DNA from: Leucoraja ocellata
Taxonomy: Eukaryota
Direction of reading: 5' to 3'
NCBI GenBank assembly: GCA_036785375.1
Contig: JAWMAR010000070.1
Span: 4,340,001-4,404,000, forward strand
Length of the DNA: 64,000 nucleotides
The position numbers and the translations under genes were made by a program. This document shows, piece by piece, positions 4,155 through 31,921 of this stretch; the stretch's first letter is position 1; every line of letters starts with the position of its first letter. The notes below the pieces were generated by a model. That model ran no database searches. It saw nothing but the letters and a program-made list of their open reading frames with translations, and had not been told where the DNA came from.

Positions 4155-4245
4155 CTTAGAGCCTCTTGTGAGCACCGCGGTTGAGATACTCCAGATCACA
4201 AGCAGGAGAAAGAACATCCAGCGCCCCACTTCCCATGAGATGTAA
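4155..4245 (-). CDS. Gene C transmembrane exon with Arg (YISWEVGRWMFFLLLVIWSISTAVLTRGSK)
   Basis: tatttcttgccctttgcccag acceptor, TAAG|GTAGGT donor; hydrophobic segment; protein identical in gene B. Confidence 0.8.
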
Positions 4246-5871: not shown

Positions 5872-5920
5872 CTTGCAGAGTAATTGGATGGTATCGAATT
5901 TTCACAATAATATTCAAGAC
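5872..5920 (-). CDS. Gene C 49-nt Cys linker exon (GLEYYCENSIPSNYSAR)
   Basis: ttccttgttccaacag acceptor, CAAG|GTAAAA donor, phase 1 to 2. Confidence 0.78.
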
Positions 5921-6462: not shown

Positions 6463-6783
6463 CAGTGCCGTTGATTTTCACCAGGAAACTGCAGGACACG
6501 TCATTGCTGGAGATGGACACGTTGACCATTTCACTGGATTTTGATCCACGTTGATTTGAGGCTGTGCAATAATATTGATGGTGCTGGTGTTTGAAGGATT
6601 GACAATGTAGATCCAGGGCATTGTTGTCTGAGATCTTTGAATCCCCAGATGGGGTCTTTTCATACCAGGTGTAGTTAATGGGAAGCGATCCCCAGACCGA
6701 CTCACAGGACACTGTCACTGAGCCCCCGAGACAATAGACATTGGCTGGTGACAGACACCCGAGCACAGGAACAGACACGGGTT
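6463..6783 (-). CDS. Gene C C2b exon
   Basis: 321 nt, ACTG|GTAAGT donor. Confidence 0.88.
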
Positions 6784-7689
6784 CTGTGGGAAAGGAGCAA
6801 ACAGTCAGATACTGAGTGAACATCTGAAAATCAAACACTCGCCAATATCCACCATCTCTGGATCTTCGCCAGAGCCACCAGGTTGGAATCTGACCCATCC
6901 ATCTGCACGGAGTCATAGAGGCATACAGTGTAGAAGCAGGCCAACATGTCCATCCACACTAGTTCCACCTGCCCTTGCTTAGCCCATAAGCTTCCAAACG
7001 GAAGAGACCGTGCATTTACTCGATCTATTCGTCGCGTGATTTTGTAGCTGCCATAAGATCATCCCTCATCCTCCTGCTCTCCCAGAAAGTCCTAGTCTGC
7101 TCAATCCCTCCCTGGAGTTCAGGCACTCAAGTCATGGCAGCATCCTTGTAAATCTTCTCTGCACCCAATCTTACTTGATAGCATCTTTCCTATAACATGG
7201 TGATGAATACTGACCACAGAGCGGACATATCATCAGACAATCTTCGATTCTCTTTTACATTTCAGGAATTGCCAGCAGGAAAAAGGGAGCATTGTTTATA
7301 TAACTGTCGGACCCATCCCATCTACATAGATTCGTAGAGTCATACAGTAGAAACCTCGGCCTAACTTGCCCGCGCTGACCAACACGCCCAATGTACACTA
7401 GTTCCACCTGTCCTTTCATGGCCCTCAACCCTCTAAACATATCCTATTCATGTAACTGTCCAATATTTTCTGAAATGTTACGATAGTACCTGCCATAACT
7501 ACTTCCGTCAGCATTTCGTTTCATGGACCTACCAACCTTTGTGTAAACACGTTACTCGCCAGGTTCCTGTTAAATCATTCCCGCCTGATATGAAAACTAT
7601 GTCCTCTGGTTCCCTATTCCCCTACTCTGGGCAAAAGACTGTGTATTTACTCGATCTATTCCTCGCGTGATTTTTGTGATTTAAAAAAA

Positions 7690-8380
7690 AAATTTAATAA
7701 ATATTTTTATTTGAATCAATGTACAGTAGTATAAACCGTGTTTTACATATTACATTTAGTGTAAAACTTCTTGTTTTTAATTTATTAATAGAAAAGTAAC
7801 AGAAGCAAAAATGAGAAGGAGAGAGAAAGTTAAGTAGTGATATTGATAGTTCGTGAAAGAATAGATAGAAAGAACCCGTAAAGATATAAAGTCGTAAAAA
7901 ATCCGTGACCCCCCCTCCCCCCGAAAATTAAATACATTAATTAGTAAATAGAAATAAAAAATAGAAAATAAAATAAAATAATAAGAAAACAAAACAGAAA
8001 AAGAATAAAAGGGAGAAGGGATATACCTGCTTCATGTCTTTCCACACCCCTCGCCTAGTTCTGAAACAGTTAATTTCCAGGGTTATGTTGCACCATGTAC
8101 TTGGAATAAGTCGATAAAAGGAGACCAAATCTTTAGGAATTGGTCTGCTTTACATGCTAGGACGAATCTTATATCTTCGAGGTGTAACATTTCAGACATG
8201 CTTGAAATCCACATTTTACGCGTGGGGGTGGGTTCGTTGTTCAAGAATTTGAGTATACGTTTTTTTGCTGTTATCAAGCCGTGGTTAAGGAGAGAATTTT
8301 GGAACGAAATCAGCTTAGAGCCGGCTTCCATTGTTCCAAAAATAATCAATTCAGTGTTGGGGTCCAATTTTATTTTAAAC
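7690..8380 (-). mobile_element. L1/Tx1-like LINE 3' fragment (copies at ~25780-26450 and ~53210-55610, the latter interrupted by CR1)
   Basis: LIIFG...LITAKKRILK...FLKIWSPFI C-terminal signature; AT-rich 3' tail. Confidence 0.65.
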
Positions 8381-9093
8381 TCGCGTGATTTTTTTACCTG
8401 CAATAAAATCACCCCTCATCCTCCTGCGCTCCAAGGAATAAAGCCCTAATCTGCGCAACCCCTCCCTGTATAGCAGGCCCTCAAGTCATCGCAACATTCT
8501 TGTAAGTCTTCCCTGCTCCTTCTCCTCACAATCAATTTACCAGATTTATACATCTCTGTGTCTCTCCATTCTCCCAGCCGCCAGAACTACCATGTCTGGC
8601 ACTGGACCAGTACACAGCAGCACCATCTCTCTTTGTTTTACAATTCCAGCATCTGCAGTTAATCTTCTTTTAATCTGAAACTCTGCTTTTAATCTGAACA
8701 TTCAAACACTTCATTAGTGCAACAGTATCAACAACTTTTTAATTTCCTTGCATAAAATTGTTGATAGTGATAATGTTGCACAAATGAGGTGTGTGAATGG
8801 CGGTATTGTAGAATTGTGTGTAGGGAGCGAATGGGGAAGTGGAATAATATAAAACTAGTGTGACCGGTGATCGCTAGTTGGTGAGGATTCGGTGGGCCGA
8901 AGGATCCGTTTCCATGTTACATTTGTAAACTATTACTAAATATCCGGGTGAACATGTTTCTGTAAACTCTACAAACCGTTCACATCTTTTGTTTTATAAA
9001 GCGGCGACCAGACCTGTGCACCAGACTCCCACCTAACAAATGTTTTGCCCGTTGCCTAAGTGGAGACATCAAGTCACTCACTGAGAAACCTAC

Positions 9094-9405
9094 CTTCAGA
9101 TACTTGGAGATATACTTTAAATGTTGGTTCGCCAGGTGTAGTAATTCCACATCTGTACCATCCTGTATCAGCAGAGTGAAGATCCTCCACGGTCACAGTA
9201 AATATTCCTCGTGCCGGGTTATCTGTGATTGACACTGTTCCGTTCAGTCCACGTTTCCCATTTGTTTCCACTACATGTGTACACTGGCGACTTGTCCCAC
9301 GGCACCAGTATTTTGTGTGTGAGCGGTACACTGCTGCATAGTGACAATCGATTGTGATCGCTCTTCCCACAACCCCTCTTACTTCGCTCTCTGCCCACAG
9401 TGCAC
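9094..9405 (-). CDS. Gene C Ig V exon 4
   Basis: 312 nt; KYWCRGTSRQC, DTGWYRC. Confidence 0.9.
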
Positions 9406-10480
9406 CTGAAACTGAAGGAAACATCTTTCATAAATTGAAGAGCAAAATTACCCTTTCACAAACATATACATTAGAGTATAATGTACAGGGGAGTCTGCCC
9501 ACTTATTTTCTGAACTCTGTTGAATTCCACCTAGATTGCGATGAGAGACAGATACTGTACACCGTCCCTCACCATCTGCACAGGTCGTTCCAAAGCGCTT
9601 CCCAGCCAATGTGGGTGTGAATGGTGAAGAATGATGCATTGAACACGGAGCCTCTTGCAATTGGAAGGCGCTGTCTAGGGAGTCTTGGTCAGTTGCTGCA
9701 GTGCATCGTGCAGATGGTGCAAACTTCTGCTGCTCTGCATCAGCGGGGGGGGTTGAGGATGGGGTGTCTATCATGCGCGATTCTGGGTCATGACAAACCA
9801 AACACAAGTGTTCGGCGAAATTGTAGCATAGGCCAGTGCTTCTTAAACTGATGAATGGTTCACCCAAGGGCGAATAAAATTATTTTGGCGTAAATTAGTT
9901 AATTTATGTTTTTTGCTCATGTGACAAAACCAATTATCTATAAAATTATGCACAAGGGAAAATGCGATGATAATAACCAAAAGAACATAAGAACATTTAG
10001 TGGAGGGTTAATTAAATCTTGTAATAAAGACTCAAGGGCGAATGACACTGTAATAGTTTAAGAAGAACTGGCCTTGTATAAAATTGGTCTCGCTGATGTA
10101 AAACATTCACACTCTCTTCTGGACTTCCAATATGAGCGTCTCCACACCTACAGGGAAGTTCTTTTCAAAATTATCTTTGACAAAAGTAAGGGTTATACTT
10201 GATGGAGTGACGGCCAAGTAGATTCCAATTTAATTTTGTGAGATTACTGGAGTTTTACACAAATTAACATAGTTAAAATCATGAACATGATCATGAAATT
10301 GTACATCATTGGTTATAACTGATGATGGATCCAAACAGAATGAATTTGGTTTCTTTCTCTGTCTCAAAGTGCGGCAGCCAGAAAATAATGTTGATGGAAT
10401 GAACTGAACCCGCAGGTATTTCTCTCATTTGCTGAGATTTCTCACCAGCTCCCAGGTGAAAGACACAGGCAATCATTTAC

Positions 10481-10543
10481 CAGTCCCCCAAACAAATTCT
10501 CGCATTTTACACCATGAGCTCCCGGTGGCTGCAATGATGCCGT
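10481..10543 (-). CDS. Gene C 63-nt Cys linker exon (DGIIAATGSSWCKMREFVWGT)
   Basis: tttgcag acceptor, ACTG|GTAAAT donor, phase 1-1. Confidence 0.65.
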
Positions 10544-10625
10544 CTGCAAATAACAAGAAATCCATGAACATCACCTCAAGGCGAATGAATAGCAGCAGGT
10601 TCAGGGACACGAGAAGAACACTCAC

Positions 10626-10946
10626 CTGCATTGTTGATTTCTGTCACATAACTGCACGTTCCTGCTCCTTTGAAGACTTTCACGTTGAATATTTCACTGG
10701 ATTTTATCCCACGATTATTTGAGGCTGTGCAGTAATATTGACGATGTTGGCCTTCGAGGATTTCACAACTCAGATCCAGTTGATTGCCAGACAAGATCGT
10801 TAAAGACCCATCCTCGTTCTTCTCAAACCATGTGTAATTGATGGGAAAGGATCCACGGACAGACTCACACGACACTGACACTGAGCCTCCGAGACGTGAG
10901 GCATTTGCTGGTGACAGATATCTGAGCACAGGAGCAGACATGGGTT
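10626..10946 (-). CDS. Gene C C2a exon
   Basis: 321 nt, GCAG|GTGAGT donor. Confidence 0.88.
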
Positions 10947-11399
10947 CTGTGGGAATGGAGCAAACATTCAGTCACCTGTATGAACAGTTAAAAACCAAAC
11001 ACGTGCTAAATCTCAGCAGCCCTTTATCTCAGCCCGAACCGTCCGGTTGACATCTCACCGGCTCATCAACATCTCTGTGAGTGTGCGAAGCCCAGAAACT
11101 GAAGAAGGTTAGAGTTATAGAGAACCGAAAGATGCCCATCACAACAGCTCATTCATGCCGACCAACATGTCTTTCTGGACCATTTCCATATGTCCACGTT
11201 TCTCCCTTATCACTCGCAATGATCCCAATCTACGCAAATATCAAAAAAATATTTTAAATGCTGCTATTCTAACTGCCTTAACACCTTCCCCCTGGCAGCA
11301 GGTTCCATATAAATATCACCCAATGTGTGGAAAATGTTGTCCCTCAGAACATATGTTGGGATGTTACGTCCCTTTAAGATAGACACAAAATGCAGGAGT

Positions 11400-12140
11400 A
11401 ACTCGGCGGATTAGGCAGCATCTTTCGAGAGAAGGAATGGGTGACGTTTCGAATCGTGACCCTTCTTCAGCCTGAGAACCATGAGAAAGGGAGACAGAAG
11501 AGAAATGGAAGGGTACGGTGTGAAAACAAGTGATCAAAGGTGAAAATGTTTTAAAAAATGTAGAATGGATCATTGTCAGCTGAAGGGAAGGCATAGAATC
11601 AGTAAAATATAATCTGGAGGGCAGTGAAAATAATTGGAGGCTTCGGATGGGGCGGGATGGAGACAGGAGTAAAGCAAGGGTTACTTGAAGTTAGATAAGT
11701 CAATATTCAAACCGCTGGGTTGTAAGCTGCCCAAGCGAAATATGAGGTACTGTTCCTCCAATTTGCTTTTGGCCTCACTCTGCAGGGGAGGAGGTCCGGG
11801 ACAGAAAGATCAGTTTGGGAATGGGAGGGTGAATAAAGGTGTTTTGCAATCGGGATGTAGCGTAGGCCGAGGAACACTGTGCGGAATTGTTCAGCGAAAC
11901 GATCGCCGAGCCTGCGTTGGGTCTCCCATCTACTGTATCCGCTTGTTCACACCTGGAACAGCGGAAATAGTAGAGGAGGTTAGAAGAGATGCAAATGAAC
12001 CTCTGACTCACCCGGAAATACTGTTGGAACCTTGGACGGAGTAGAAGCGGGATATATAGGGACTGGTGTTGCATCTCCTGCAGTTGTAGGGGAAGGTATC
12101 TGGGGACGGGGTGGGAAAGGACGAGTTGACCAGTGAGTTG
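11400..12140 (-). mobile_element. Penelope-like (GIY-YIG) element fragment (copy at ~58610-59370)
   Basis: FRVSQRFICISSNLLYYFRCSRC remnant; flanked by the gacccttcttcag/gagtaactc repeat found throughout the window. Confidence 0.55.
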
Positions 12141-12442
12141 CGGAGTCTGTCGGGTTATTAGTTTGAGTCGGAATGCAAACCTCTGACAGGGTGACATTTC
12201 ATACAGTTCAGAGGCAGGGAAATGTGTTGAGCATCCCACTTGAAGTGGGTGGCCGCTCAGTGGAACAGAGCCCGCACTGGGTGAGAGCAACATGAGTGGG
12301 GTTTCCCGACCCCCGCCCGTTCCCCGCAGGTCTCTGCACTGCTGCGGAGCCTCGGGATATCGGTGCTGCCCTGACCCTTCCCGGAGAGAACATGGATCAG
12401 GCATTTCAGTGGAGACGTCAAGTCAATCGCTGCGAAACGTAC

Positions 12443-12757
12443 CGTCAGATACTTGGAGATGTACGTTAAATATTGGACGGTCGCCAGGTGTAGTAATTCC
12501 ACATCTGTACCATCCTGTATCTCCAGAGTGAAGATCCTCCACAGTCACAGCAAATATTCTTAGTGCCGGTATATCTGTGATTGACACTCTTCCACTCCGT
12601 CCGTTTTGGCCATTTGTTTCCACTGAATCTGTACATGGGCGATTCCTCCCACGGCACCAGTATTTTGTGCGTGAGCGGTACTCTGCTGCATAGTGACAAT
12701 CGATTGTGATCGCACTTCCCACAACCCCTCTTACTTCCCTCTCTGCCCACACTGCAT
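12443..12757 (-). CDS. Gene C Ig V exon 3
   Basis: 315 nt; KYWCRGRNRPC. Confidence 0.9.
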
Positions 12758-12929
12758 CTGAAACTGAGGGGAGAAACTTTCAGATGGACCACAGATCAAA
12801 CAACACTTGTTCCTCACTGGGATTATTAGTTTGAGTCTGAATGCAAATTTCTGACGGGTGACATTTCATACAGTTCAGAGGAAGGGCAATGCGCTGAGTA
12901 TTCCACTTGAAGTGAAAAGTGAAGTTAAA

Positions 12930-13340
12930 TGCCACTTTTCAAGAAAGGAGCAAGAGAGAAAACGGGAAATTACAGACCAGTTAGCCTGACTTCGGTGCGG
13001 GAAAGGTGCCGGAGTCAATTATTAAAGAGGTAATAATGGGGTATTTGAATAGCAGTAAAATAATTAGTCCAAGTCAGCATGGATTTATGAAAGGAAAATC
13101 ATGCCTGACTAATCTTCGGGAATTTTTTGAGGATGTGGCAAATAAAATGGAGGAAGGTGAGCCAGTGAATGTAGTGTATCTAGACTTCAAGAAATCCTTT
13201 GATAAGGTTCCGCACGGCAGACTGGTGACTAAATTGAGAGCGCATGGAAGGGTGTTGACGTGGATAGGAAATTGGTTGGCAGACAGGAAGCAAAGAGTAG
13301 GAGTGAACGGGTCCTTTTCTGAATGGCGGGAAGTGGCGAG
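12930..13340 (+). mobile_element. CR1 RT fragment in the V2-V3 intron (copy at ~60550..60960)
   Basis: SQHGFMKGKSCLTNL...YLDFKKSFDKVPH. Confidence 0.8.
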
Positions 13341-13377
13341 TCAGTGGAGACGACAAGTCAATCGCTGCGAAACGTAC

Positions 13378-13692
13378 CGTCAGATACAAGGAGTTCTACG
13401 GTAAACATTGGGAGGCCGTTAGATGTTGTAATTCCACATCTGTACCACCCTGTATCGCCAGAGAGAAGATCCTCCACAGTCACAGTAAATATTCCTCGTG
13501 CCCGGTTATCTGTGATTGACACTCTTCCACTCCTTCCGCGTAGCCCAATTGTTTCCACCATATCTGTACATTGGCGATTCTGCACACGGCACCAGTATTT
13601 TGTGTGTAAGCGGTACTCTGCTGCATAGTGACAATCGATTGTAATCGCACTTCCCACAACCCCTCTTACATACGTCTCTCCCCACACTGCAC
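13378..13692 (-). CDS. Gene C Ig V exon 2
   Basis: 315 nt; KYWCRVQNRQC. Confidence 0.9.
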
Positions 13693-14301
13693 CTGAAAGT
13701 GAAGGGGAGAAACTTTCAGATGGAGAGCAAATGAACAGTTTAGTGGAAATAGATACATTTCGAAGATTCCATGAAAGAAAACTTAAATAGTTCCATGATG
13801 TGTCATATTGCTTCACGGCCAATGTCTCCTGTCTGAAGTGCAGGCAGTGCTGTTATTGAACCAGTTGTGTCAGTGTTCTATCCCCGGGTCAATGCAATTA
13901 GGGTTCACTTCCCACTCCAGATCCCTGAGCAGAAACGGGGCTGGGATCGCAGTGCGGTACTGAGGGAGCGCGGCAGTGTTGCAGGAGCTGCCTTTCAACA
14001 ATCCCAGGCGGTGCCCGGCCTCTCACCCCACGAAAGACCCCACTTTGCTATTTCATTGGCGGTGACAATTTCTTCACAGCAGTTATCAGGCATCTGAATC
14101 ATCCTACCACGCCCAGAGATCTGTCCTGAACTCCCATCTACCTCTTTGACGACCCTCGGACCACCCTTGATCGGACTTTGCTGCCTTTACCTTACACTAA
14201 ACGTTATTTAATTTTCATGTATCTATGCACTGTAGGAGTATCGATTGTAACCCTGCATTGTCTTTCTGCTGGAGACGTCAATCAATCGCTGCGAAACGTA
14301 C

Positions 14302-14616
14302 CGTCAGATACTTCGAGATGAACGTTAAATATTGGATGGTCGGCAGATGTTGTAATTCCACATCTGTACCATCCTGTATCTCCATCCTGAAGATCGTCAA
14401 CAGTCACAGTAAATATTCCTCGTGCCGGGTTATCTGTGATTGACACTCTTCCACTCCGTCCGTGTTGCTCATTTGTTTCCACCAAAACTGTACATTGGAG
14501 ACTCCTCCCACGGCACCAGTATTTTGTGTGTGAGTGGTACTCTGCTGCATAGTAACAATCGATTGTGGTCGCTGTTCCCACAACTCCTCTTACATCCCAC
14601 TTTGCCCACAGTGCAC
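14302..14616 (-). CDS. Gene C Ig V exon 1
   Basis: 315 nt, phase 1-1; KYWCRGRSLQC, DTGWYRC. Confidence 0.9.
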
Positions 14617-14692
14617 CTGAAACTGAGGGGAGAAACTTTCAGATGGAGAGCAATGAACTGTTTAATGGAAATAGATACATTTTGAAGATTAC

Positions 14693-15276
14693 TTCTTCAT
14701 ATAAACGACTTCATCGCCTTCAATGCATTCAGAACTCTGCAGCCCGGATCATCACCCGCACCAGATCATCGGACCACATCACACCTATCCTCACTCAGCT
14801 CCACTGGCTCCCTGTGCACCACCGGATTAACTATAAGAATTTACTGCTGACCTTCAAAGCCCTACCGCACCTTGCTCCCCAATACCTCTCTGACTTGCTG
14901 CCACCATACACTCCTTCCCGGTCACTTCGTTCCTCCTCAGCTGCAATTTTAACGGTCCCCACATTTAGACTCAGCAGAATGGTTGCCAGAGCCTTTGGCT
15001 GCTCTGCCCCACGTCTCTGGAACACTCTCCCACCTCCCTTCCGTCACCTGGACACTATCGATCAATTCAAATCACAACTCAAAACACACCTGTTTAGATT
15101 AGCATACCCGACATAACTTCCACCATGTTCACCCTGATTTTAATGATTTAAATATTTTGTGTATTTTTTTGTTTTTTGTTTTTTGGCAACTTAATTTTAA
15201 TATTGATAATTGTATTGTGATTTTATGTCCTGTAAGGTGTCCTTGGGTGTCCAGAGAGGCGCCAGCAAATAAAATG

Positions 15277-15359
<83 letters not shown>
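14693..15359 (+). mobile_element. L2-clade LINE 3' fragment with AATAAA and (TTA)n tail
   Basis: LQCIQNSAARIITRT...LHWLPV...FKSQLKTHLF; attac repeated at both ends; empty sites near 30575 and 34450. Confidence 0.82.
15279..15359. repeat. (TTA)n microsatellite (L2 tail); counterpart at ~63244..63328
   Basis: Pure trinucleotide run visible in the sequence. Confidence 0.95.
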
Positions 15360-15360
<1 letters not shown>

Positions 15361-16887
15361 ATGAAAGAAAACTTAAATCGTTCCATGATGTGTCATATTG
15401 CTTCACGGCCAATGTCTCCGGTCTGAAGTGCAGGCAGTGCTGTTATTGTATCAGTTGTGTCAGTGTTCTGTCCCCGGTTCAGTACAATTTGGGTTCACTT
15501 CCCACTCCAGATCCCTGAGCAGAAACTGGGCTGGGATCGCAGTGCGGTACTGAGGGAGCGCGGCAGTGTTGCAGGAGCTGCCTTTCAACAATCCCAGGCG
15601 GTGCCCGGCCTCGCACCCCACAGAAAGACCCCACTTTGCTATTTCATTGGCGGTGCCGCCGGCTACGCTGCCAACATTCATCTCTCAACCGACACTGGGC
15701 AGGACCCGTGTTTTTTTTAAATTATCAAATAATTTATTCAATTATTAAAAATAATATTTACACTACAATAAAACAAGAACCCAGCACCATAATACAAGAC
15801 AAACAAATATACTAAATACACTACTATACAACTATGTTACAATGCTTGTCAAGGATGTATTCAACCGCAGGCGGTGCCCAGATGTCCCGGAAATCCCCCA
15901 GGTGCCCGTGGACAGCGCCTGGTCCTTGTCGAGTCCCACCCGGACGCGGAAAGCCGACCCGTGTTTACACATTCACCGCCGCCAATGCTTTCCAACACCC
16001 TGACTGAGGACAGAGGCCGGACGAGTTACGGGTCCATTAACGGAGAGCGGGTCCATTAACGGAGAGCGTTAGTAGCGTGACAACGCACACCGCCAGATTC
16101 GGGGAATGTTTCTTCCCAGCTGTTATCAGACATCCGAATCATCTTCCCATAACCAGAGAGCAGTGCTGAACTATCTACCTCTTTGGTGACCCTCGGACTA
16201 CCCTTGATCGGACTTTGCTGGCCTTACCTTACAATAAACTTTATTTCCCATTCATGTATGTAAGATGATCGATTGTAATCATGTATCTGGCAGGTTAGCA
16301 TGCAACATAAAGCTTTTCGCTGTACCTCGGTACACGTGACAATAAACTGAACTTGGATTTCAGCACGACTGGGCCGCGGATCCGAGAGCGGATGGAGAGA
16401 GAGTTGGGAGTGGGTGGATAGAGCGAGGACAGTGGTTCAGTCTCAGACTCCGGGGAATTGTTGGGTTTGCGACAGAGTTGAGATGGACAAATGCAGGGAA
16501 TATTTGAACTGACACAATGAGACCACAATCCTGACTTCCACCTCTGTTGTAAACACATTTTGTTAGTGTAGAATTAACTTCCTGGTGATGCTGGAACCTC
16601 TGTCCTTCGGTCCAGGTGTCTTGGAGTATCTGCTCCAAATACATTCGCTATTTAATGCCTATATATGCCTATCATCAGGATGCAATTAGACCAAGTGTTA
16701 GCGGTGGTTAAACTACGAACATTTTCTAGATATTCAAACGTGATTTCAGATCCATCACCACAATGCACTGAGTTCAATCTCGCCCATTACTTGTCTACAC
16801 ACACTTAACCATCTGTGCTGTAGAAAGGGTGCACGGGACCCCAACTAACATTGATCATTGGAATATCAGGATCTGACTTTCACTCAC

Positions 16888-16924
16888 CCGGCAGCGAGGC
16901 GATGAGAAGAATGGGAATCCACAT
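16888..16924 (-). CDS. Gene C signal peptide exon (MWIPILLIASLP; alternative in-frame ATG at 16936)
   Basis: Hydrophobic leader, CCGG|GTGAGT donor; the 16924 ATG is the one conserved in gene B. Confidence 0.85.
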
Positions 16925-17039
16925 TGTTTTATCCATAGTGACAAGGCCAGCACTTGTCTGTCTGTCGCTCAGCCCTGAGCTTTCAGAGACAACCGCGTCT
17001 CTCAAATAGCAATGACTTAGAAGGGAACAGGACGTCAGA

Positions 17040-20100: not shown

Positions 20101-21511
20101 TGTCAGTGTGGGAATGGGAGGGAGGAGTTACCGTGTTTAGCGACCGGGATATCAGGTAGGGGCGGACTCAACGGAGGTGTTCAGCAAAACGATCGCCGAG
20201 AAGCGAGAACAATCGCAGGCTCAGCAATCGTTTCGCTGAACACCGCCCCCCAGTCTGCCTACCCCTACCTGATCTATCTACTGATACCGCCTGCCACGCT
20301 AAGTTACCCCAGCAATTTATGTCTATCTTCAGTTTAAACCAGCATCTACAGTTCCTTCCTACCTAAAAATTAGTTGCATATCGGCAATGAAATCTGTACA
20401 TGTTGGATGTGCTTAGCGCGTCAGTCAGTGTCTGTGCAGAGAAAAATAAGGTTAATAGTCAGAACAATGCTGTTGCATAATTTTGGTCTGATGGGATAGC
20501 ACAGTCTGAAAGATTAATTGAATGCCTTCCCTAATCGCCTTTAATGTTTGGCAACAAGAGGAATATCCAGCAGTCTAATCAAAACAAATTAGACAAACCG
20601 TTTATTGACAACAACCATTTATTAAGAAGCATTCTGTTGCATTATTATTCATTAATCTGTGAAAAAAAATCCAGGAAATTGTATGCATATAATATAGTTT
20701 AACGGAGGATAAAACTCTGAAGCAGCAGAAACCACGCAAAGGTTAAAACAATAGTTCGAAGCTGACGAAAGAAACCTTGGAAGAGGTGGCAAAAATTAAG
20801 ATGGTGCAAGCTAGGAGTCTTCATTGTAATTCGTGGGTCGAGTGGCGAGGTTCTGAGTCATCGCGTCTCTGCAAAAGACAATGTGAAGTCATCAGACAGA
20901 CTGACAGTGGGAACCACGCTTTATTTGTCCCGGCCACTCCCAACACATTGCTGTCTGCAAAATGCTAATCCACGAATTAGTTAATCCAATGCCAACGAAC
21001 CCACACCGGGCACAGAAATCCACCCTGCACGCGTACAACCTGACAGAACCTCGTGATATCATCTACATAGAGATTTGGTTTAACCTCAGGATATGAAAAC
21101 GTGCACGATTTTTGTTTCTATCGATGGACAGGATATATGAAAGCATTAATGGAAACCGTTTGGAAACACTCGGCAAAGAGAAGGGATTGCTTTGGGCGAA
21201 TCCCTTCTGGTGAATCTATGGATTTCATTGCCACAGGAGGCTGTGGGTGCCAAGTTAATTCACACCGGAGATGCTGCCTGTCCCGCTGAGCTACTCCAGC
21301 ATTTTGGTATCTGTCCAAATTAATTGATGCTTTAAGGCGGAGATTTTCATTTTCTTGATAAATAAGGATGTCAATGGTTACGGGGAGAAGGCAGGTGAAT
21401 GGGATCGAGTGAAGGATAGATCAGCCGTGATTGGGGGCCGATTAGATATGATGGGCTGAATGGCCTAATTCTGCTCCTATAATTTATGAACATGATGACA
21501 ATAAAACCTAC

Positions 21512-21602
21512 CTTAGAGCCTCTTGTGAGCACCGCGGTTGAGATACTCCAGATCACAAGCAGGAGAAAGAACATCCAGCGCCCCACTTCCCATGAGATGT
21601 AA
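21512..21602 (-). CDS. Gene B transmembrane exon with Arg (YISWEVGRWMFFLLLVIWSISTAVLTRGSK)
   Basis: tttgcccag acceptor, TAAG|GTAGGT donor, phase 2 to 0. Confidence 0.8.
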
Positions 21603-21670
21603 CTGGGCAAACGGCAAGAAATACGGAGTCAATGGGAGGAAACGAGACGGTTAATCTTTGAAGCATTTAC

Positions 21671-21736
21671 CTGTTATTTGCTTCATAATCTTGGTGAAGT
21701 GGAGCGGGGCGAAGCGGCAGCGTCAGTGGAGACCAT
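21671..21736 (-). CDS. Gene B 66-nt stalk exon
   Basis: ttcttttacaaag acceptor, ACAG|GTAAAT donor, phase 2-2; open only in the frame required by its neighbours. Confidence 0.55.
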
Positions 21737-23216
21737 CTTTGTAAAAGAACGGGTGTTGGACTGGGGGGAGGCGGGGGGGACAATATATGATAACCAATTG
21801 TTGACGTCATTGTTGGGGCATGGCTACAAGACTCGGAATGAGAGACTACGCGGTTAAATGGATTCAGAGAAGACAGATAAATAAGTCATGAGCTGGGACA
21901 GTGAATACAAAACAGATGGACACAAAATGTTGGAGAAACACAGCGGGAGAGGCAGCATCTCTCTGGAGAGAAGGAATGCGTGAAGTTCCGGGTCGAGACC
22001 CTTCTTCAGACCGAGAGTCACGGGAGAGGGAAACTGTGGATGTGGAAGGATACAAAGAACAGTGTGATACCCTGGAAGAAAGAAAATGCAGCTGCAAGGA
22101 AGTTTATAATAAAATCCATTTGGATAGACAGGAATAATAAAAACGGAACAATTCCAATAATGGAAGGGAGATGGGCAATAAAAATGGAAACAGATGAGGC
22201 CAATTAATAAAATTAATTAAAAAATGATTATACTTAATCTCACACCCTGGATACTTCGTGGATCAACGCGGTAGGTGTGTGGATGGAGGAATTGTGCTCG
22301 AAAAATCGGTTAAAGGTTCGCTCATAACGGCGTGGCTTTCATGAACATTTGCTAACGCAAGTATAACACAAGAGTGTGATAGAAAGTCAGATCTATTTCA
22401 ATTGTGATAAGATAAACAACAAAATGTTCCCACTTTCATGACTATATTATGATTGAATATTTAATGGTTTCAAGTATCAACGAGTAAGAGAGAGTCAGTT
22501 AACTCATTTTGCTGTATTCGGATGAGGTGAGTGACGGAGCAGTCATGTTGAATACTGCAGGGAGCGCTCTCTGAAAAGCATCAAATGGAGGAACTTGTTC
22601 TTATCATCCAAGCATGTACACAACACAATGAGATGTAAACCAGTGCGATTCCCCCTCTGATGAGTTAACTAAAAACTGGTTTGTAAGTTATATTTATTGT
22701 ATTAAATAATATTTAATAGATACGTTTATATTTGGTGTCAGGCTTGAAACTTGTACAACAATTGGTTATGCTTCGTGACATTTAGGTTCATTGGATCAAA
22801 GACCCATAGAGAAACACAGTATAGAAACAGGCCGTTTCCGTCAACTGCATTCACATGATTCCTGTGACAATCCTATTTTTATTTCCCCCACTTGCTCATC
22901 AACTACCACCCCCACCCCCACCCCACCAATTCTTCACAGATTCAGCCACTCTCCTGTACACACGGGACAATTTACAACTGGCTCATCTTTGGGAGCTGGG
23001 AGGAAACTGGAGCACTTGAATGAAACCAACACAATTAAAGGCAAAACATGCAGACCACGCACAGACAGCTCCTAATGAACCAATGTCGTGGCGTTGTGAG
23101 ACTGTGGCTCAACACTCTCACGCATTTAATGCCAGTTTCTCCCAATTAAAGCATTCCCCAATCAAAACACCAGCAAATAGTACATTGTAACTTTCATTGG
23201 AAACAGAGCATTTTAC

Positions 23217-23265
23217 CTTGCAGAGTAATTGGATGGTATCGAATTTTCACAATAACATTCAAGAC
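23217..23265 (-). CDS. Gene B 49-nt Cys linker exon (GLECYCENSIPSNYSAR)
   Basis: ccaacag acceptor, CAAG|GTAAAA donor, phase 1 to 2. Confidence 0.75.
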
Positions 23266-24547
23266 CTGTTGGAACAAGGAAATACAAGTCAGTTTCACTG
23301 CTTTTCACTTGCAGTTTAACAAGTAGCTATGATTTTCCGATGCACGGAGTTGATAGGCTTAACAGACAGGGCAATGCTTCTTCTGTGTGATTTGCAGCAA
23401 ATGGGAGATGTTATCATGACAAGCAGCAGTGCTGGTAACAACTCTGGCTCCAGGTGTAGATGGCACGATGGCGCAGCGGTAGAGTTGCTGCCTTACCGCC
23501 AGAGGCACGGGTTCGATCCTGACCACGGATGCTGTCTCCACGGAATTTGTAACTCCTCCCTGTGACCGCGTGGGGTTTCTACAAGTGCTCCAGTTTCCCC
23601 ACAGTCTGAACTCTTGCAAGTGTGTTGGTTAATTGGCTTCTGTAAATTGTCCCCGTGGAACTAGTATACTGGTGATTACTGGACGTTGTGTACTCAGTGG
23701 CACGAAGAACCGGCTTCCACGATGTATCCACAAATTAATCAAAAGGGTCCAATTTCATTTGAGAGGAGTATTGCTTGGGATGAAACATTACAGTTATGGG
23801 GAGGGGTTGGATAGGGGTTTTATAAAGTTCCATGCAGAACAGGTGAGGAAGGGGGGATCTATTACAGGTGTGCAAAACTATGAGCAGCAGGGTATTTTTT
23901 GAACATTTTACATGACAGATATGTGTAAAAGTGGAGAACATATGGGTAAGTTAAGGAGCAGGATGTTTGAAGGGTATAAATAAATATTTTTAAACCGAGA
24001 AGATAGAGGTACCTGAATTGCCTCAATGGACGAGGTGCTGGTAAGTGGGATGAGTATTGATTGTACTGAATGGTCAACATTAACACAGTGGACCAAATCT
24101 GATACCGTCGTCTAGGAGTTAATTGTGGCCACATTTACTGATAATTTCTGATCCCTTCACATATTTGAGTGTCGGTCATGTGGAGATGATGGAAAGTGAA
24201 AATGCTTGGACTGATGTCACTGCAAACCTAGTTTAAAGCTGTGTAAACATAAGAGGCAGTTCTTGCCGGGAAGCTGGCCTACACCAGCACTGGTAAATCT
24301 ATTTCTGGAGCCCAGCAACCAAGTATTGACAAATAATTCCATAATTTTAATCTTGATAACGTAATTAAATAACGTGCATGGATTTCAGGGTGTCTGGGGT
24401 TATGGGGAAAAGGCAGGAGAATGGGGTGAGGAGGGGAAGATACATCAGCCATGATTGAATGGTCTATTTCTGCTTCTACCACATGTGATTTTATGAACCA
24501 CCCCACCCCCACTTCCCCTTCTTCTCCTCATTCCCTCCACTACTTAC

Positions 24548-24868
24548 CAGTGCCGTTGATTTTCACCAGGAAACTGCAGGGCACGTCACTGCTGGAGATG
24601 GACACGTTGACCATTTCACTGGATTTTGATCCATGTTGATTTGAAGCTGTGCAGAAATATTGATGGTGCTGGTGTTTGAAGGATTGACAATGTAGATCCA
24701 GGGCATTGTTGTCTGAGATCTTTGAATCCCCAGATGGGGTCTTTTTATACCAGCTGTAGTTAATGGGAAGGGATCCCTGGACCGACTCACAGGACACTGT
24801 CACTGAGCCCCCGAGACAAGAGACATTGGCTGGTGACAGACACCCAAGCACAGGAACAGACACGGGTT
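24548..24868 (-). CDS. Gene B C2b exon
   Basis: 321 nt, canonical splice sites. Confidence 0.85.
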
Positions 24869-27174
24869 CTGTGGGAAAGGAGCAAACAGTCAGACACTCA
24901 GTGAACATCTGAAAATCAAACACTCGCCAATATCCACCATCTCTGTATCTTCGCCAGAGCCGCCAGGTTGGAATCTGACCCATCCATCTACATAGAGGCA
25001 TATAGTGTAGAAGCAGGCCAACATGTCCATCCACACTAGTTCCACCTGCCCTTGCTTAGCCCATAAGCTTTCAAACGGAAGAGACCGTGCATTTACTCGA
25101 TCTATTCGTCGCGTGATTTTGTAGCTGCCATAAGATCATCCCTCATCCTCCTGCTCTCCCAGAAATAAAGTCCTAGTCCGCTCAATCCCTCCCTGGAGTT
25201 CAGGCACTCAAGTCATGACAGCATCATTGTAAATCTTCTCTGCACCCAATCTTACTTGATAGCATCTTTCCTATAACATGGTGATGAATACTGACCACAG
25301 GGCGGACAAATCATCAGACAATCTTCGATTCTCTTTTACATTTCAGGAATTGCCAGCAGGAAAAAGGGAGCATTGTTTATATAACTGTCGGACCCATCCC
25401 ATCTACATAGATTCGTAGAGTCATACAGTAGAAACCTCGGCCTAACTTGCCCGCGCTGACCAACACGCCCAATCTACACTAGTTCCACCTGTCCTTTCTT
25501 GGCCCTTAACCCTCTAAACATATCCTATTCATGTAACTGTCCAATATTTTCTGAAATGTTACGTTAGTACCGGCCATAACTACTTCCGTCAGCATTTCGT
25601 TTCATGGACCTACCAACCTTTGTGTAAACACGTTACTCGCCAGGTTCCTGTTAAATCATTCCCGCCTGATATGAAAACTATGTCCTCTGGTTCCCTATTC
25701 CCCTACTCTGGGCAAAAGACTGTGTATTTACTCGATCTATTCCTCGCGTGATTTTTGTGATTTAAAATATATATATATATATATTTTTATTAGAATCAAT
25801 GTACAGTAGTATAAACCGTGTTTTACATATTACATTTAGTGTAAAACTTCTTGTTTTTAATTTATTAATAGAAAAGTAACAGAAACAAAAAGAGAAGGAG
25901 AGAGAAAGTTAAGTAGTGATATTGATAGTTCGTGAAAGAATAGATAGAAAGAACCCGTAAAGATATAAAGCCGCAAAAAAAACGTGAACCCCCCCCCGAA
26001 AAATAAATACATAAATTAGTAAATAGAAATAAAAAATAGAAAATAAAATAAAATAATAAGGAAACGAAACAGAAAAAGAATAAAAGGGAGAAGGGATATA
26101 CCTGCTTCATGTCTTTCCACACCCCTCACCCAGTTCTGAAACAGTTAATTTCCAGGGTTATGTTGCACCATGTACTTGGAATAAGTCGATAAAAGGAGAC
26201 CAAATCTTTAGGAATTGGTCTGCTTTACCTGCAAGGCCGAATCTCATATCTTCGAGGTGTAACATTTCAGACATGCTTGAAATCCACATTTTACGCGTGG
26301 GGGTGGGTTCGTTGTTCAAGAATTTGAGTATACGTTTTTTTGCTGTTATCAAGCCATGGTTAAGGAGAGAATTTTGGAACGAAATCACCTTAGAGCCGGC
26401 TTCCATTGTTCCAAAAATAATCAATTCAGTGTTGGGGTCCAATTTTATTTTAAACTCGCGTGATTTTTTTACCTGCAATAAAATCACCCCTCATCCTCCT
26501 GCGCTCCAAGGAATAAAGCCCTAATCTGCTCAACCCCTCCCTGTATACCAGGCCCTCAAGTCATCGCAACATTCTTGTAAATCTTCCCTGCTCCTTCTCC
26601 TCACAATCAATTTACCAGATTTATACATCTCTGTGTCTCCCCATCCTCCCAGCCGCCAGAACTACCATGTCTGCCACTGGACCTGTACACAGCAGCACCA
26701 TCTCTCTTTGTTTTACAATTCCAGCATCTGCAGTTAAAATTCTTTTAATCTGAGCCTCTGCTTTTAATCTGAACATTCAAACACATCATTAGTGCAACAG
26801 TATCACTATCAACAACTTTTTAATTTCCTTGCACAGAATAGTTGATAGTGATAATGTTGCACTAATGAGGTGTGTGAATGGCGGTATCGTAGAATTGTGT
26901 GTAGGGAGCGAATGGGGAAGTTGAATAATATAAAACTAGTGTGACCGGTGATCGCTAGTTGGTGAGGACTCGGTGGGCCGAAGGATCCGTTTCCATGTTA
27001 CATTTGTAAACTATTACTAAATATCCGGGTGAACATTTTTCTGTAAACTCTACAAACCTTCCACATCTTTTGTTTTATAAATCGGCGACCAGACCTGTGC
27101 ACCAGACTCCCACCTAACAAATGTTTTGTCCGTTGCCAAAGTGGAGACATAAAGTCACTCATTGAGAAACCTAC

Positions 27175-27478
27175 CATCAGATACTTGGAGATGTACTTTA
27201 AACGCCAGGTGTAGTAATTCCACAGCTGTACCATCCTGTATCTCCAGAGTTAAGATCCTCCACAGTCACAGTAAATATTCCTCGTGCCGGGTTATCTGAC
27301 ATTGACACTCTTCCACTCTGCCCACGTTCCCTATTTGTTTCCACTGCATGTGTACACTGGCGACTTGTCCCGTTGCACCAGTATTTTGTGAGTGAGCGGT
27401 ACACTGCTGGATAGTGACACTCGATTGTGATCGCTCGTCCCACAACCCCGTGTACTTCGCTCTCTGCCCGCTGTGCAC
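27175..27478 (-). pseudogene. Gene B V4-type exon with 8-bp deletion and premature stop
   Basis: 304 nt versus 312 in paralogs; plus-strand tgttggtt is missing near 27202; reads ...GITTPGV*. Confidence 0.85.
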
Positions 27479-28591
27479 CTGAAACTGAAGGAAACATCTT
27501 TCATAAATTGAAGAGAAAAATTAGCCTTTCACAAACATATACATTATAGTATACATCAATGTGTACAGGGGAGTCCGCCCAATCGTTTTCTTAACTCTGT
27601 TGAATTCCACCTAAATTGCGATGAGAGACAGATACTGTACACCGCCCCTCACCATCTGCACAGATCGTTCCAAAGCGCTTCCCAGCCAATGTGGGTGTGA
27701 ATGGTGAAGAATGATGCATTGAACGCTGAGCCTGTTGCAATTGGAAGGCGCTGTCTCGGGAGTCTTGGTGAGTTGCTGCAGTGCATCGTGCAGATGGTGC
27801 AAACTGCTGCTGCTCTGCATCAGCGGTTGAGGATGGGGTGTCTATCAAGTGCGATTCTGGATCATGACAGACCAAGCACAAGTGTTCAGCGGAATTGTAG
27901 CCGAGGCCACTGCTTCTTAAACTAGTGAATGGTTCACCCAAGGGTGAATGAAATTATTTTGGGGTGAATTAGTTAATTTATGTTTTTTGCTCATGTGACA
28001 TAATTAATTATATATGAAATTATGCACAAAGGAAAATAAGATGATAATAACCAAAAAAACATAAGAACATTTAGTTGAGAGGGAATTACATCTTGTAATA
28101 AAGACTCAAGGGTGAATGACACTGAAATATTTTAAGAAGAACTGCCATTCTATAAACTTGGTCACTCTGATTTACACTCTATTCTGGACTTCCAATCTGA
28201 ACGTCTCCACGCCTACTGGGAAGATCTTTTCAAAATTCTCTTTAACAAAATTAAGGGTTATACTTGATGGAGTGACGGCCAAGTAGATTCCACTTTAATT
28301 TTGTGAGATTACTGGAGTTTGACTCAAATTACCAGTTAAAATCATAAACATAATCATGAAATTGTACACCCTTCATTGGAAATGATGGCGGATCCAAACA
28401 GAAAGAATTTGGTGCGTTCTCCGACTCAAAGTGAGTGTGAGACCTTAAGTGGCAGCCAGAAATAATATTTTTAAGTTGGAAGGCCGAAATTTGATGGAAT
28501 GTACTAAACACGTTGTGATAAGTGCAGGCTTGTCCCTCCTTTGCTGAAATTGCTCAACACATCCCAGATGGAAGCAACAGCCAATTATTTG

Positions 28592-28644
28592 CTAGTCCCC
28601 CAAACAAACTCTCGCATTTACACCACGAGCTGCAATGATGCCGT
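28592..28644 (-). pseudogene. Gene B decayed Cys linker exon
   Basis: Homolog of 10481..10543 with 10+1 nt deleted; frameshifts to TAG and the donor GT is lost. Confidence 0.65.
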
Positions 28645-28722
28645 CTGCAAATAACAAGAAATCCATGAACATCACCACAAGGCGAATAGCAGCAGGTTCA
28701 GGGACACGAGAAGAACACTCAC

Positions 28723-29043
28723 CTGCATTGTTGATTTCTGTCACATAACTGCACGTTCCTGCTCCTTTCAAGACTTTCACGTTGAGACTTTCACTGGATT
28801 TTGTCCCATGATTATTTGAGGCTGTGCAGTAATATTGACGGTGTTGCCCTCCGAGGATTTCACAACTCAGATCCAGTTGATTGCCATACACGGTAGTTGA
28901 AACCCAATGCTCGTTCATCTCAAACCATGTGTAACGGATGGGAAGGGATCCACGGACAGACTCACACGACACTGACACTGAGCCTCCGAGACGTGAGGCA
29001 TTTGCTGGTGACAGATATCTGAGCACAGGAGCAGACACGGGTT
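28723..29043 (-). CDS. Gene B C2a-type exon
   Basis: 321 nt, GCAG|GTGAGT donor. Confidence 0.85.
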
Positions 29044-30189
29044 CTGTGGGAATGGAGCAAACATTCAGTCACCTGTATGAAAAGTTAAAAACCTTGCTAA
29101 ATCTCAGCAGCCCTTTATCTCAGCCCGAACCGTCCGGTTGATATCTCACCGGCTCATCTACATCTCTGTGAGTGTGCGAAGCCCAGAAACCGAAGAAGGT
29201 TAGAGTTATAGAGAACCGAAAGATGCCCATCACAACATCTCATTCATGCCGACCAACATGTCTTTCTGGGCCATTTCCATATGTCCACGTTTTTCCCTTA
29301 TCACTCGCAATGATCCCAATCTACGCAAATATCAAAGAAATATTTTAAATGCTGTTCTTCTAACTGCCTCAACAACTTCCTCTGGCAGCAGGTTCCATAT
29401 AAATATCACCCAATGTGTGGACAATGTTGTCCATCAGAACAGAAGTTGGGATGTTATGTTTCAGTTGTACATATGTTGTTGATGTCGAACTTGGGCGAAT
29501 TGTGTTCAGCTTCGGCCACTCACCTGTACAAAACATGCCATTACAGTAAGTGACAGCTTACTACCCCCCCCCCCCCCCCCCTCCACTCTTTAAATAGTTC
29601 CCATTGCGTCCGTCCTCCACTTTTTGATTCCACACATCGTGGGAAAATGAACATGCTTCTCGTGATTGATACATTTCTATAAGTTCCTCGCTCAATCATT
29701 TCCACACCAAGGAATGAAGTCTGAGTTTGTCCAATCGCTCCCTGCGTCAATCACGTCCTGTCCAGGCAGCGTCGGACCAGGGGGCTGACCTGCCCCGGGT
29801 GGACTGAACGCAGTCTGTGGAACTCTGGGGACTGATTCCCTGTTTATTATTCTCCGTGTATTCAGACCGCGAGCAACACTTGTTTCTCACTGATCTGTCG
29901 GATATTAGTTTGAGTCGGAATGCAAACTTCTGACAGGGTGACATTTCATACAGTTCAGACGCAGGGAAATGTGTTGAGCATCCCACTTGACGTGGGTGGC
30001 CGCTCAGTGGGACAGAGCCCGCACTGGGTGAGAGCAACACGAGTGGGGTTTCCCGACCCCCGCCCGTTCCCCGCAGGTCTCTGCACTGCTGCGGAGCCTC
30101 GGGATATCGGTGCTGCCCTGACCCTTCCCGGAGAAAACATGGATCAGGCATTTCAGTGGAGACGTCAAGTCCATCGCTACGAAACGTAC

Positions 30190-31600: not shown

Positions 31601-31921
31601 CAGTGCCGTTGATTTTCACCAGGACACTGCAGGGCACGTCACTGCTGAAGATGGACATGTTGACCATTTCACTGGATTTTGATCCATGTTGATTTGAGGC
31701 TGTGCAATAATATTGATGGTGCTGGTGTTTGAAGGATTGACAATGTAGATCCAGGGCATTGTTGTCTGAGATCTTTGAATCCCCAGATGGGGTATTTTCA
31801 TACCAGCTGTAGTTAATGGGAAGGGATCCCCAGACCGACTCACAGGACACTGTCACTGAGCCCCCGAGACAAGAGACATTGGCTGGTGACAGAAACCCAA
31901 GCACAGGAACAGACACGGGTT
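31601..31921 (-). CDS. Gene B extra C2b-type exon (inserted module)
   Basis: 321-nt open exon with canonical sites, near-identical to 24548..24868. Confidence 0.82.

What the first reader, a model, noticed from the sequence alone, without database searches (positions are those of the whole stretch)
6463..16924. Hybrid architecture: CD300/pIgR-type V domains interleaved with FcR-like C2 domains
Seen: four V domains carrying the extra C-C' disulfide signature (WC-x6-C) alternate with two C2 domains (CESxxGSxPIxYxW...YYCTASN) in a V3-C2-V-C2 order. Established: mammalian CD300/pIgR use only V domains and FcR/FCRL use only C2 domains; skate MDIRs were described as mixing domain types. Inference: this is a candidate Ig-binding (IgM/IgW/IgNAR) or lipid-binding receptor, relevant to the origin of pIgR and Fc receptors. 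Whether this six-domain form has been described is unknown without a search.
Basis: partly seen in the sequence, partly recalled or inferred. Interest (0 to 1): 0.72.

Follow-up and report, generated by a model that had tools for sequence, protein, structure and literature searches.

The report
Skate paired immune receptor, known family
This is an intact skate gene for a six-domain cell-surface receptor of the already described MDIR family, one of dozens of near-identical tandem copies; it likely acts as the 'on' partner of neighbouring 'off' receptors, and whether it binds antibodies is untested.

Summary

It is a modular domain immune-type receptor (MDIR): 391 of 501 residues match clearnose-skate MDIR5 (V-C2-V-C2), membrane anchor and tail included. 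The V/C2 mixture is therefore already on record: MDIR3 is V-V-C2-V-C2, and 82 of 87 database relatives mix the two types. The exact V3-C2-V-C2 order occurs in 0 of 87, yet it is the commonest form in this genome's roughly 40-gene cluster: 8 intact copies with an Arg anchor, 2 with ITIM tails.

Ectodomain exons do not sort by tail type, which fits a paired activating/inhibitory system. The Arg likely recruits FcR-gamma, whose membrane exon is in the genome; binding is untested.

The V domains score closer to CD300 than to pIgR D1 and lack its longer CDR1 loop. The cluster lies between G-alpha and AHCYL/GST-mu/AMPD genes, 3.3 Mb from an IL10-family exon. An Fc-receptor role is possible but unsupported. 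The scan reported MDIR paired clusters before in other genomes.

The parts
16888..16936 (-). Gene 1 leader exon (ATG at 16936; conserved ATG at 16924)
   Evidence: same N-terminus as MDIR3 and MDIR5
14302..14622 (-). Gene 1 V1 exon, CD300/pIgR-type V with C-C' cysteines (second in-frame acceptor at 14616)
13378..13692 (-). Gene 1 V2 exon; upstream acceptor AG lost, in-frame downstream AG kept
   Evidence: 1 of 21 V2-type exons lacks the upstream AG
12443..12763 (-). Gene 1 V3 exon
10626..10946 (-). Gene 1 C2a exon, FCRL5-like C2 with a C-terminal extension holding an extra Cys
9094..9411 (-). Gene 1 V4 exon; groups with MDIR3 D4 and MDIR5 D3
   Evidence: tree support 100/99
6463..6783 (-). Gene 1 C2b exon
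5872..5920 (-).
4155..4245 (-). Gene 1 transmembrane exon, W-x3-R-W with Arg680 at the outer edge of the helix
3462..3509 (-). Gene 1 last coding exon: short tail, no tyrosine, stop
20818..36001 (-). Gene 2: leader-V-C2-V-C2-V-C2-stalk-Arg TM-short tail; fifth Ig exon (27175-27478) is 8 nt short and shifts the frame
39313..39624 (-). Orphan V4-type exon with open frame and splice sites, no leader or TM found nearby
45417..62580 (-). Gene 3, inhibitory twin: V3-C2-V-C2, stalk 50644-50692, uncharged TM 48127-48215, tail exons 46106-46152 and 45417-45683 with three ITIM/ITSM-like motifs; leader just beyond the window end
   Evidence: 77% identical to MDIR3 over 696 aa; ectodomain 90% identical to gene 1

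Best explanation
This is an intact MDIR5-type skate receptor gene (V-V-V-C2-V-C2, arginine-bearing anchor, short tyrosine-free tail) in a tandem cluster that also holds ITIM-tailed twins with about 90% identical ectodomains, and it likely works as the activating half of a paired receptor system by recruiting the FcR-gamma adaptor. Shown: gene structure, MDIR identity, the two tail types, mixing of ectodomain exons between tail types, and an FcR-gamma-like membrane exon in the genome. Inferred: surface expression on leukocytes; pairing of Arg680 with the adaptor's Asp; and a ligand shared with the inhibitory twins, most likely a membrane lipid or microbial surface as for CD300/TREM-type V domains, not antibody Fc. 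The V3 head arose by exon duplication and shuffling of single-exon, phase 1-1 modules.
For: Identity: 391 of 501 residues match MDIR5 with 2 gaps, and 49 of the last 62; gene 3 is 77% identical to MDIR3 over 696 aa. Tails: W-x3-R-W is present in 24 of 27 short-tailed proteins and 1 of 40 long-tailed ones, and 38 of those 40 carry ITIM-like motifs (sets include genes 1 and 3). All 29 Arg-type TM exons in 864 kb keep the Arg; 9 genes have an uncharged TM plus ITIM exon. Pairing: for 30 of 44 Ig exons of ITIM genes the nearest exon belongs to an Arg-TM gene, and AU tests reject one ITIM-gene clade for V2 (p 0.032), V4 (5e-5) and C2b (0.032). Adaptor: exon L001 hits TCR_zetazeta at 56 bits and matches FcR-gamma (48.5 bits) better than CD3-zeta (40.2 or less). 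A charged TM residue with a short tail is the textbook activating layout (PMC4788293, passage). With a family profile, single V domains score CD300f 88.5, CD300a 76.8, pIgR D1 55.8-61.6, NKp44 54, TREM2 38 and Fc-mu-R 35.8 bits.
Against: No binding, signalling or expression data for this gene. The original MDIR paper, as I recall its abstract (not held), classed MDIR5 as lacking signalling motifs. Gene 1 has Glu677 three residues before Arg680 where MDIR5 has Lys (16 of 29 TM exons have Glu), which could neutralise the Arg. Arg680 lies at the edge of the most hydrophobic 21-residue window (678-698), so it may merely sit at the membrane surface. Arg-TM genes outnumber ITIM genes, so 30 of 44 is about what no sorting predicts; it is not an excess. 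Pooled dN/dS is 0.60-1.23, which fits relaxed constraint after recent duplication as well as ligand-driven change. The lipid or microbial ligand rests on family analogy only.
Confidence: 0.65

Rival explanations
1. It is an immunoglobulin receptor (IgM, IgW or IgNAR) that stands in for the Fc receptors and pIgR said to be missing in cartilaginous fish, signalling through FcR-gamma.
For: V domains match pIgR domains and C2 domains match FCRL5 repeats best (E 2.7e-40 over several repeats). An FcR-gamma-like exon exists. The same 9-Mb contig carries an IL10-family exon and a PFKFB gene, neighbours of PIGR in human by recall. Reviews state that FcR, FCRL and PIGR are absent from cartilaginous fish and call the gap an open question (PMC4016189, PMC13337447; passages).
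Against: B-strand Cys-to-Trp spacing is 12 in 186 of 215 family V domains (13 in 2, 27 unmatched) against 14 in pIgR D1, whose longer CDR1 binds Ig (alignment; role recalled). CD300f outscores pIgR D1 and Fc-mu-R per domain. The flanks are CCD48/G-alpha and AHCYL/GST-mu/AMPD, and the IL10-family exon is 3.3 Mb away. About 40 rapidly turning-over copies suit a variable ligand better than a conserved Fc. The short tail has no tyrosine, so no Tyr-based sorting signal for transcytosis.
Confidence: 0.1
2. It is a non-signalling adhesion or decoy receptor: the W-x3-R-W motif only anchors the helix at the membrane surface, and the protein competes with its ITIM twins for ligand.
For: Arg680 lies at the outer edge of the hydrophobic stretch, and Glu677 may pair with it. 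MDIR5 was, by my recall of the abstract, described as lacking signalling motifs. The tail has no tyrosine.
Against: The Arg is kept in 29 of 29 TM exons here and in short-tailed relatives from skates, rays and a carpet shark, while nearly all long-tailed relatives lack it. FcR-gamma-coupled receptors carry their Arg near the outer end of the helix (recalled).
Confidence: 0.17
3. The six-domain product is not made: the head V exons are skipped or the copy is silent, so the working form is the MDIR5-like V-C2-V-C2.
For: No read-level splicing evidence was obtained. Phase 1-1 exons can be skipped in frame. V2 has lost its usual upstream acceptor. Several cluster members are broken. None of 87 database proteins has this order.
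Against: Eight Arg-TM and two ITIM genes keep the full order with open frames. MDIR3 shows V-V-C2 joined in one deposited protein, and a ray gene model has V-V-V-C2 (P0058).
Confidence: 0.08

Closest known systems
MDIR5 of clearnose skate (ABC86800.1, UniRef100_A0S0F2; P0026)
   Same: Leader, V-C2-V-C2 core, Cys stalk, W-x3-R-W anchor and short tail; 391 of 501 residues identical.
   Different: Gene 1 has two more N-terminal V domains, and Glu instead of Lys three residues before the Arg.
MDIR3 of clearnose skate (ABC86797.1; P0025)
   Same: V-V-C2-V-C2 ectodomain, 74% identical to gene 1 over 577 aa; its ITIM tail matches gene 3.
   Different: Inhibitory tail and one V fewer. Its two head V domains group with each other and with MDIR5 D1, so they duplicated separately from V1-V3 here.
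Mammalian CD300 family (CD300f, CD300a, CD300c)
   Same: Best single-domain match for the V exons; C-C' cysteines, 12-residue CDR1 spacing, paired activating/inhibitory design.
   Different: CD300s have one V domain and no C2, and activating members use a mid-helix charge with DAP12 (recalled). Tweety and EBP50_C hits, markers of the CD300 region by recall, lie on other contigs, which is weak evidence in a fragmented assembly.
pIgR / Fc-alpha-mu-R / Fc-mu-R
   Same: Related V domains; multi-domain ectodomain.
   Different: No D1-type long CDR1; C2 domains interleaved; multigene cluster; not at the IL10-PFKFB or SARG-PFKFB position.
FCRL5 and other FcR-like proteins
   Same: C2a matches FCRL5 repeats best among solved structures, at most 27.8 bits per domain.
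   Different: Weak per-domain score, with CD22 domains also matched. MDIR C2 exons carry extra cysteines and a C-terminal extension. FCRLs have no V domains (PMC4016189, passage).

Membership tests
MDIR (V/C2 type, MDIR3/MDIR5) | High, collinear identity to a named MDIR over ectodomain, TM and tail | tested here: met
   391 of 501 aa to MDIR5; 49 of the last 62
MDIR (V/C2 type, MDIR3/MDIR5) | Modular mix of CD300-like V and C2 domains in varying number | tested here: met
   One exon per domain, phase 1-1; many orders in the cluster and among 87 relatives
MDIR (V/C2 type, MDIR3/MDIR5) | Large multigene family with activating-type and ITIM members | tested here: met
   29 Arg-TM exons and 9 uncharged-TM/ITIM genes in 864 kb
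MDIR (V/C2 type, MDIR3/MDIR5) | Whether the V3-C2-V-C2 form is among those in the original description | tested here: inconclusive
   Paper not held; 0 of 87 database proteins have this order; a range of one to six domains is recalled from the abstract
FcR-gamma-coupled activating receptors | Arg near the outer end of the TM helix, short tail without ITIM or ITAM | tested here: met
   Arg680; no Tyr after the TM
FcR-gamma-coupled activating receptors | Physical association with FcR-gamma | not tested
   Adaptor exon is present; association not examined
pIgR / Fc-alpha-mu-R | D1-type long CDR1 loop for polymeric Ig binding | tested here: not met
   Spacing 12 against 14 in pIgR D1
pIgR / Fc-alpha-mu-R | Position between the IL10 family and C1orf116/PFKFB2 | tested here: not met
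   Cluster is 3.3 Mb from the IL10-family exon; no V or C2 exon in C70:8.235-8.335 Mb or in all 186 kb of C1929
pIgR / Fc-alpha-mu-R | Binding of polymeric Ig | not testable with these tools
   Needs a binding assay
CD300 | V domain with C-C' disulfide cysteines and CD300-length CDR1 | tested here: met
CD300 | Single V ectodomain without C2 | tested here: not met
   Four V and two C2 domains
CD300 | Synteny with the human 17q25 block | tested here: not met
   Immediate flanks are CCD48, G-alpha, AHCYL, GST-mu and AMPD, a human 1p13.3-type set by recall
CD300 | Calcium-dependent binding of phosphatidylserine or other lipids | not tested
   No residue-level alignment to CD300 binding sites was obtained
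FCRL / classical FcR | Ectodomain made of C2 domains only | tested here: not met
   4 of 6 domains are V-set

The most novel reading that the evidence does not exclude
V/C2 MDIRs are the missing antibody receptors of sharks and skates: pIgR/CD300-type V domains joined to FCRL-type C2 domains, signalling through an FcR-gamma chain that reviews say is absent from cartilaginous fish, and clustered on the ancestral chromosome that also carries the TREM and PIGR neighbourhoods.
Probability: 0.1. Interest if true: 0.8.

Novelty: new member of a known kind. Interest (0 to 1): 0.3.

Why it matters
As a gene it adds one domain count to a family named in 2006. The useful additions are contextual. First, a genome-level view: about 40 tandem genes whose ectodomain exons do not sort by activating or inhibitory tail. 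Second, a reading of the MDIR5 anchor as FcR-gamma-coupling, with an FcR-gamma-like exon in a skate, although PMC4016189 reports none in cartilaginous fish. Third, the cluster's place on a contig that also carries NFYA (TREM neighbour) and IL10/PFKFB (PIGR neighbours). How cartilaginous fish manage without Fc receptors and pIgR is stated as open in PMC13337447, and these receptors give named candidates for a direct binding test, though the sequence evidence leans against Ig binding.

Tried and rejected
- Original MDIR paper (PMID 16738934 / PMC3701310) and PMC2823954: not held. Of 10 paper searches, those naming MDIR returned only PMC3031540 as relevant. I cannot show that the six-domain form is absent from print; the original paper's figures and supplements may contain it.
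- AlphaFold models of MDIR5 (pLDDT 58, pTM 0.33) and C2b (pLDDT 64, pTM 0.57) were too weak, and their fold searches are not used.
- Complex prediction with FcR-gamma was not available, so association is open.
- Sequencing runs: no RNA holder listed. No read-level evidence on splicing or expression was obtained, so both are open.
- DAP10 family search found nothing among 23 candidates; this does not show absence. DAP12 was not searched.
- FOXP-CC hits were on other contigs, so the cluster is not shown to sit at the TREM position either; NFYA is 1.0 Mb away.
- The TRIM part of a fused Rhinoraja model (P0029) had no match in the loci then held.
- Flank genes come from Pfam scans of 255 of about 1025 candidate ORFs, ranked by composition, so other flank genes may be missed.
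- Rejected: assembly artefact (same-contig copies differ by 6-10% in protein and vary in architecture); Ig or TCR locus (best matches are CD300/pIgR, and the V exons have intact splice donors); positive selection as a claim (pooled pairwise dN/dS is non-independent and near 1).
Full report
Observation. Pfam calls four of them V-set and two Ig_2. A splice model with leader, six Ig exons, stalk, TM and tail has GT-AG at all 9 introns and one open frame. MDIR3 and MDIR5 read V-S-G-A at their V junctions, which points to the upstream of two in-frame acceptors. With it the product is 717 aa from the ATG at 16936, or 713 from the conserved ATG at 16924. V2 has lost that upstream AG (1 of 21 V2-type exons) and can use the downstream one in frame.

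Identity. A search with C2a among longer proteins gave 53 hits, 52 of them from elasmobranchs, including clearnose-skate MDIR3 and MDIR5. A search with V1 gave 73 hits and brought the total to 87 proteins. Gene 1 matches MDIR5 at 391 of 501 residues, through TM and tail. MDIR5 is V-C2-V-C2 and MDIR3 is V-V-C2-V-C2. Of the 87 proteins, 82 mix V and C2; the commonest orders are VCVC (18), VC (17), VCVCVC (11) and VVCVC (6); VVVCVC occurs in 0 of 87. Most of these are automatic gene models. So the hybrid is known, and the exact count was not found in these searches. In a V-domain tree V4 groups with MDIR3 D4 and MDIR5 D3 (100/99), while the two head domains of MDIR3 group with each other and with MDIR5 D1 (100/99), so head duplications happened more than once.

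Surroundings. The window holds two more genes. Gene 2 is VCVCVC with an Arg anchor and a frameshifted fifth Ig exon. Gene 3 is VVVCVC with an uncharged TM and three ITIM/ITSM-like motifs; its ectodomain is 90% identical to gene 1 and it is 77% identical to MDIR3. The window lies at G000:C70:4.340-4.404 Mb, and 78 of 83 genome-wide C2a matches are on that contig. A census of 3.850-4.714 Mb gave 45 segments, 29 Arg-TM exons and 9 uncharged-TM/ITIM genes. With exon borders extrapolated from genes 1 and 3, 12 Arg-type and 8 ITIM-type genes have open frames; VVVCVC accounts for 8 and 2 of them. These counts are approximate for diverged members. The other 7 intact Arg-type VVVCVC copies are 90-94% identical to gene 1 in the ectodomain.

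Pairing. Among Ig exons of the same length and at least 90% identical to the window's copy, distances between Arg-type and ITIM-type genes are about those within a type for the V exons and C2b, and somewhat larger for C2a (0.064 against 0.044). For 30 of 44 ITIM-gene exons the nearest exon is in an Arg-type gene, twice at zero distance. Arg-type genes are the majority, so this shows no sorting rather than an excess. AU tests on quick trees reject a single ITIM-gene clade for V2, V4 and C2b (p 0.032, 5e-5, 0.032; V1, V3 and C2a were not tested). Ectodomain exons therefore move between tail types, by gene conversion or unequal crossing-over (inference). Pooled dN/dS is 0.91, 1.23, 1.04, 0.70, 1.17 and 0.60 for V1, V2, V3, V4, C2a and C2b: little constraint, and no proof of positive selection.

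Signalling. W-x3-R-W marks 24 of 27 short-tailed and 1 of 40 long-tailed proteins; 38 of the 40 have ITIM-like motifs (proteins without a detectable TM were left out). A charged TM residue with a short tail is the standard activating layout with DAP12 or the common gamma chain (PMC4788293, passage). An Arg near the outer end of the helix points to FcR-gamma rather than DAP12 (recalled from Fc-alpha-RI, GPVI, LILRA and NKp46). The genome has two TCR_zetazeta matches among 72 candidates. L001 matches FcR-gamma best and keeps the TM Asp; only this one exon was examined. PMC4016189 (passages) reports no gamma chain in cartilaginous fish, so this is at odds with that paper; I recall later reports of shark FcR-gamma but did not find them. 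Against coupling: Arg680 sits at the edge of the hydrophobic window, and Glu677 could pair with it. Association was not tested.

Ligand. With a family profile, single domains rank CD300f, CD300a and CD300c (88.5, 76.8, 73.3 bits) above pIgR D1 (55.8-61.6), NKp44 (54), TREM2 (38) and Fc-mu-R (35.8); with V1 alone the gap is smaller (66.6 against 60.1). The CDR1 segment is two residues shorter than in pIgR D1. C2a matches FCRL5 repeats best, but at no more than 27.8 bits per domain. I therefore put Ig binding at about 0.1 and a lipid or microbial ligand shared with the inhibitory twins as most likely; this step is analogy.

Synteny. Order on C70: NFYA 2.83 Mb; CCD48 3.79-3.80 and G-alpha 3.84; the V/C2 cluster 3.87-4.69; V-only CD300-like exons 4.71-4.94; AHCY-like 4.95-4.98, best match AHCYL1 entry 3mtg (weakly separated from AHCYL2); GST-mu 5.01; AMP deaminase 5.04-5.05; an IL10-family exon 8.28; PFKFB 8.33. 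By recall, G-alpha/AHCYL1/GSTM/AMPD2 is a human 1p13.3 set, NFYA flanks the TREM cluster, and IL10 and PFKFB2 flank PIGR. Chicken chromosome 26 carries both TREM (PMC4788293) and PIGR (PMC4016189) (passages). No V or C2 exon was found in 100 kb around IL10-PFKFB, or on the 186-kb contig C1929 that holds SARG and another PFKFB. The cluster is thus not at the PIGR, TREM or CD300 position, but shares an ancestral chromosome with the first two. This is suggestive for common origin and does not show orthology. bioRxiv 10.1101/2022.04.21.489081 (passages) notes that Cx6-7C motifs are shared by CD300, TREM and PIGR and do not settle homology.

Literature. PMC3031540 (passages and section 6) describes MDIRs as multigene activating/inhibitory receptors resembling CD300, TREM and pIgR, and cites Cannon et al. 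2006. That paper is not held; what I say of its abstract is recalled. PMC13337447 (passages) states the lack of Fc receptors and PIGR in cartilaginous fish as an open question. Four earlier notes of this scan on other genomes reached the same MDIR paired-receptor reading; I reached mine before seeing them, and they are not independent support.

Verdict. A real, intact gene and a new member of a known family. The hybrid architecture is not new; the V3 head is a copy-number variant that is common in this genome. Interest 0.3, carried by the testable FcR-gamma coupling and the small chance that these are the missing Ig receptors.

Noticed in passing
L001:1465-1608 (G000:C201:592449-592535): FcR-gamma-like transmembrane exon in a skate genome, although PMC4016189 reports no gamma chain in cartilaginous fish; only this exon was checked.
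   Followed up: partly
L002:1501-1634 (G000:C175, near 2976731-2976793): CD3-zeta-like TM exon whose two halves lie in different frames; may be an assembly indel.
   Followed up: no
G000:C70:4.714-4.935 Mb (L096, L097, L100, L102, L110, L122): A second group of CD300-like V-only exons next to the cluster; some keep the C-C' cysteines, and the tandem ones in L102 and L122 have lost them. Some may relate to human TMIGD3 (recalled to lie at 1p13; not tested).
   Followed up: partly
G000:C70:3880008, 4224087, 4299970: Three segments with leader, TM and tail (two with stalk) but no Ig exon found; two of them have open frames of about 76 aa.
   Followed up: no
G000:C70:3.865-3.90 Mb and 4.206-4.245 Mb; 3.96-4.15 Mb: The same run of genes appears twice, and a block of about ten genes is on the opposite strand: a segmental duplication and an inversion inside the cluster.
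   Followed up: no
G000:C70:4578223-4618794: Two ITIM genes with 8 and 10 alternating V-C2 domains and open frames of about 1010 and 1220 aa.
   Followed up: partly
window 10626-10946 and 6463-6783, minus: Each C2 exon carries an extra Cys in the domain and another in a roughly 15-residue C-terminal extension, conserved across elasmobranch relatives; possibly an extra disulfide not seen in FCRL domains. Models were too weak to tell.
   Followed up: partly
window 12985-13340, plus: ORF in the V2-V3 intron that looks like a LINE reverse-transcriptase fragment (recalled resemblance, not tested).
   Followed up: no
window about 43400-43620, minus: A poly(A) signal followed by a primer-binding-site-like 18-mer, as at the end of an LTR (motif recalled, not tested).
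   Followed up: no
L103:3262-4923 (G000:C70, about 8.298-8.300 Mb): A 554-codon open frame, with a 403-codon frame on the other strand, between the IL10-family exon and PFKFB; no Pfam match.
   Followed up: no
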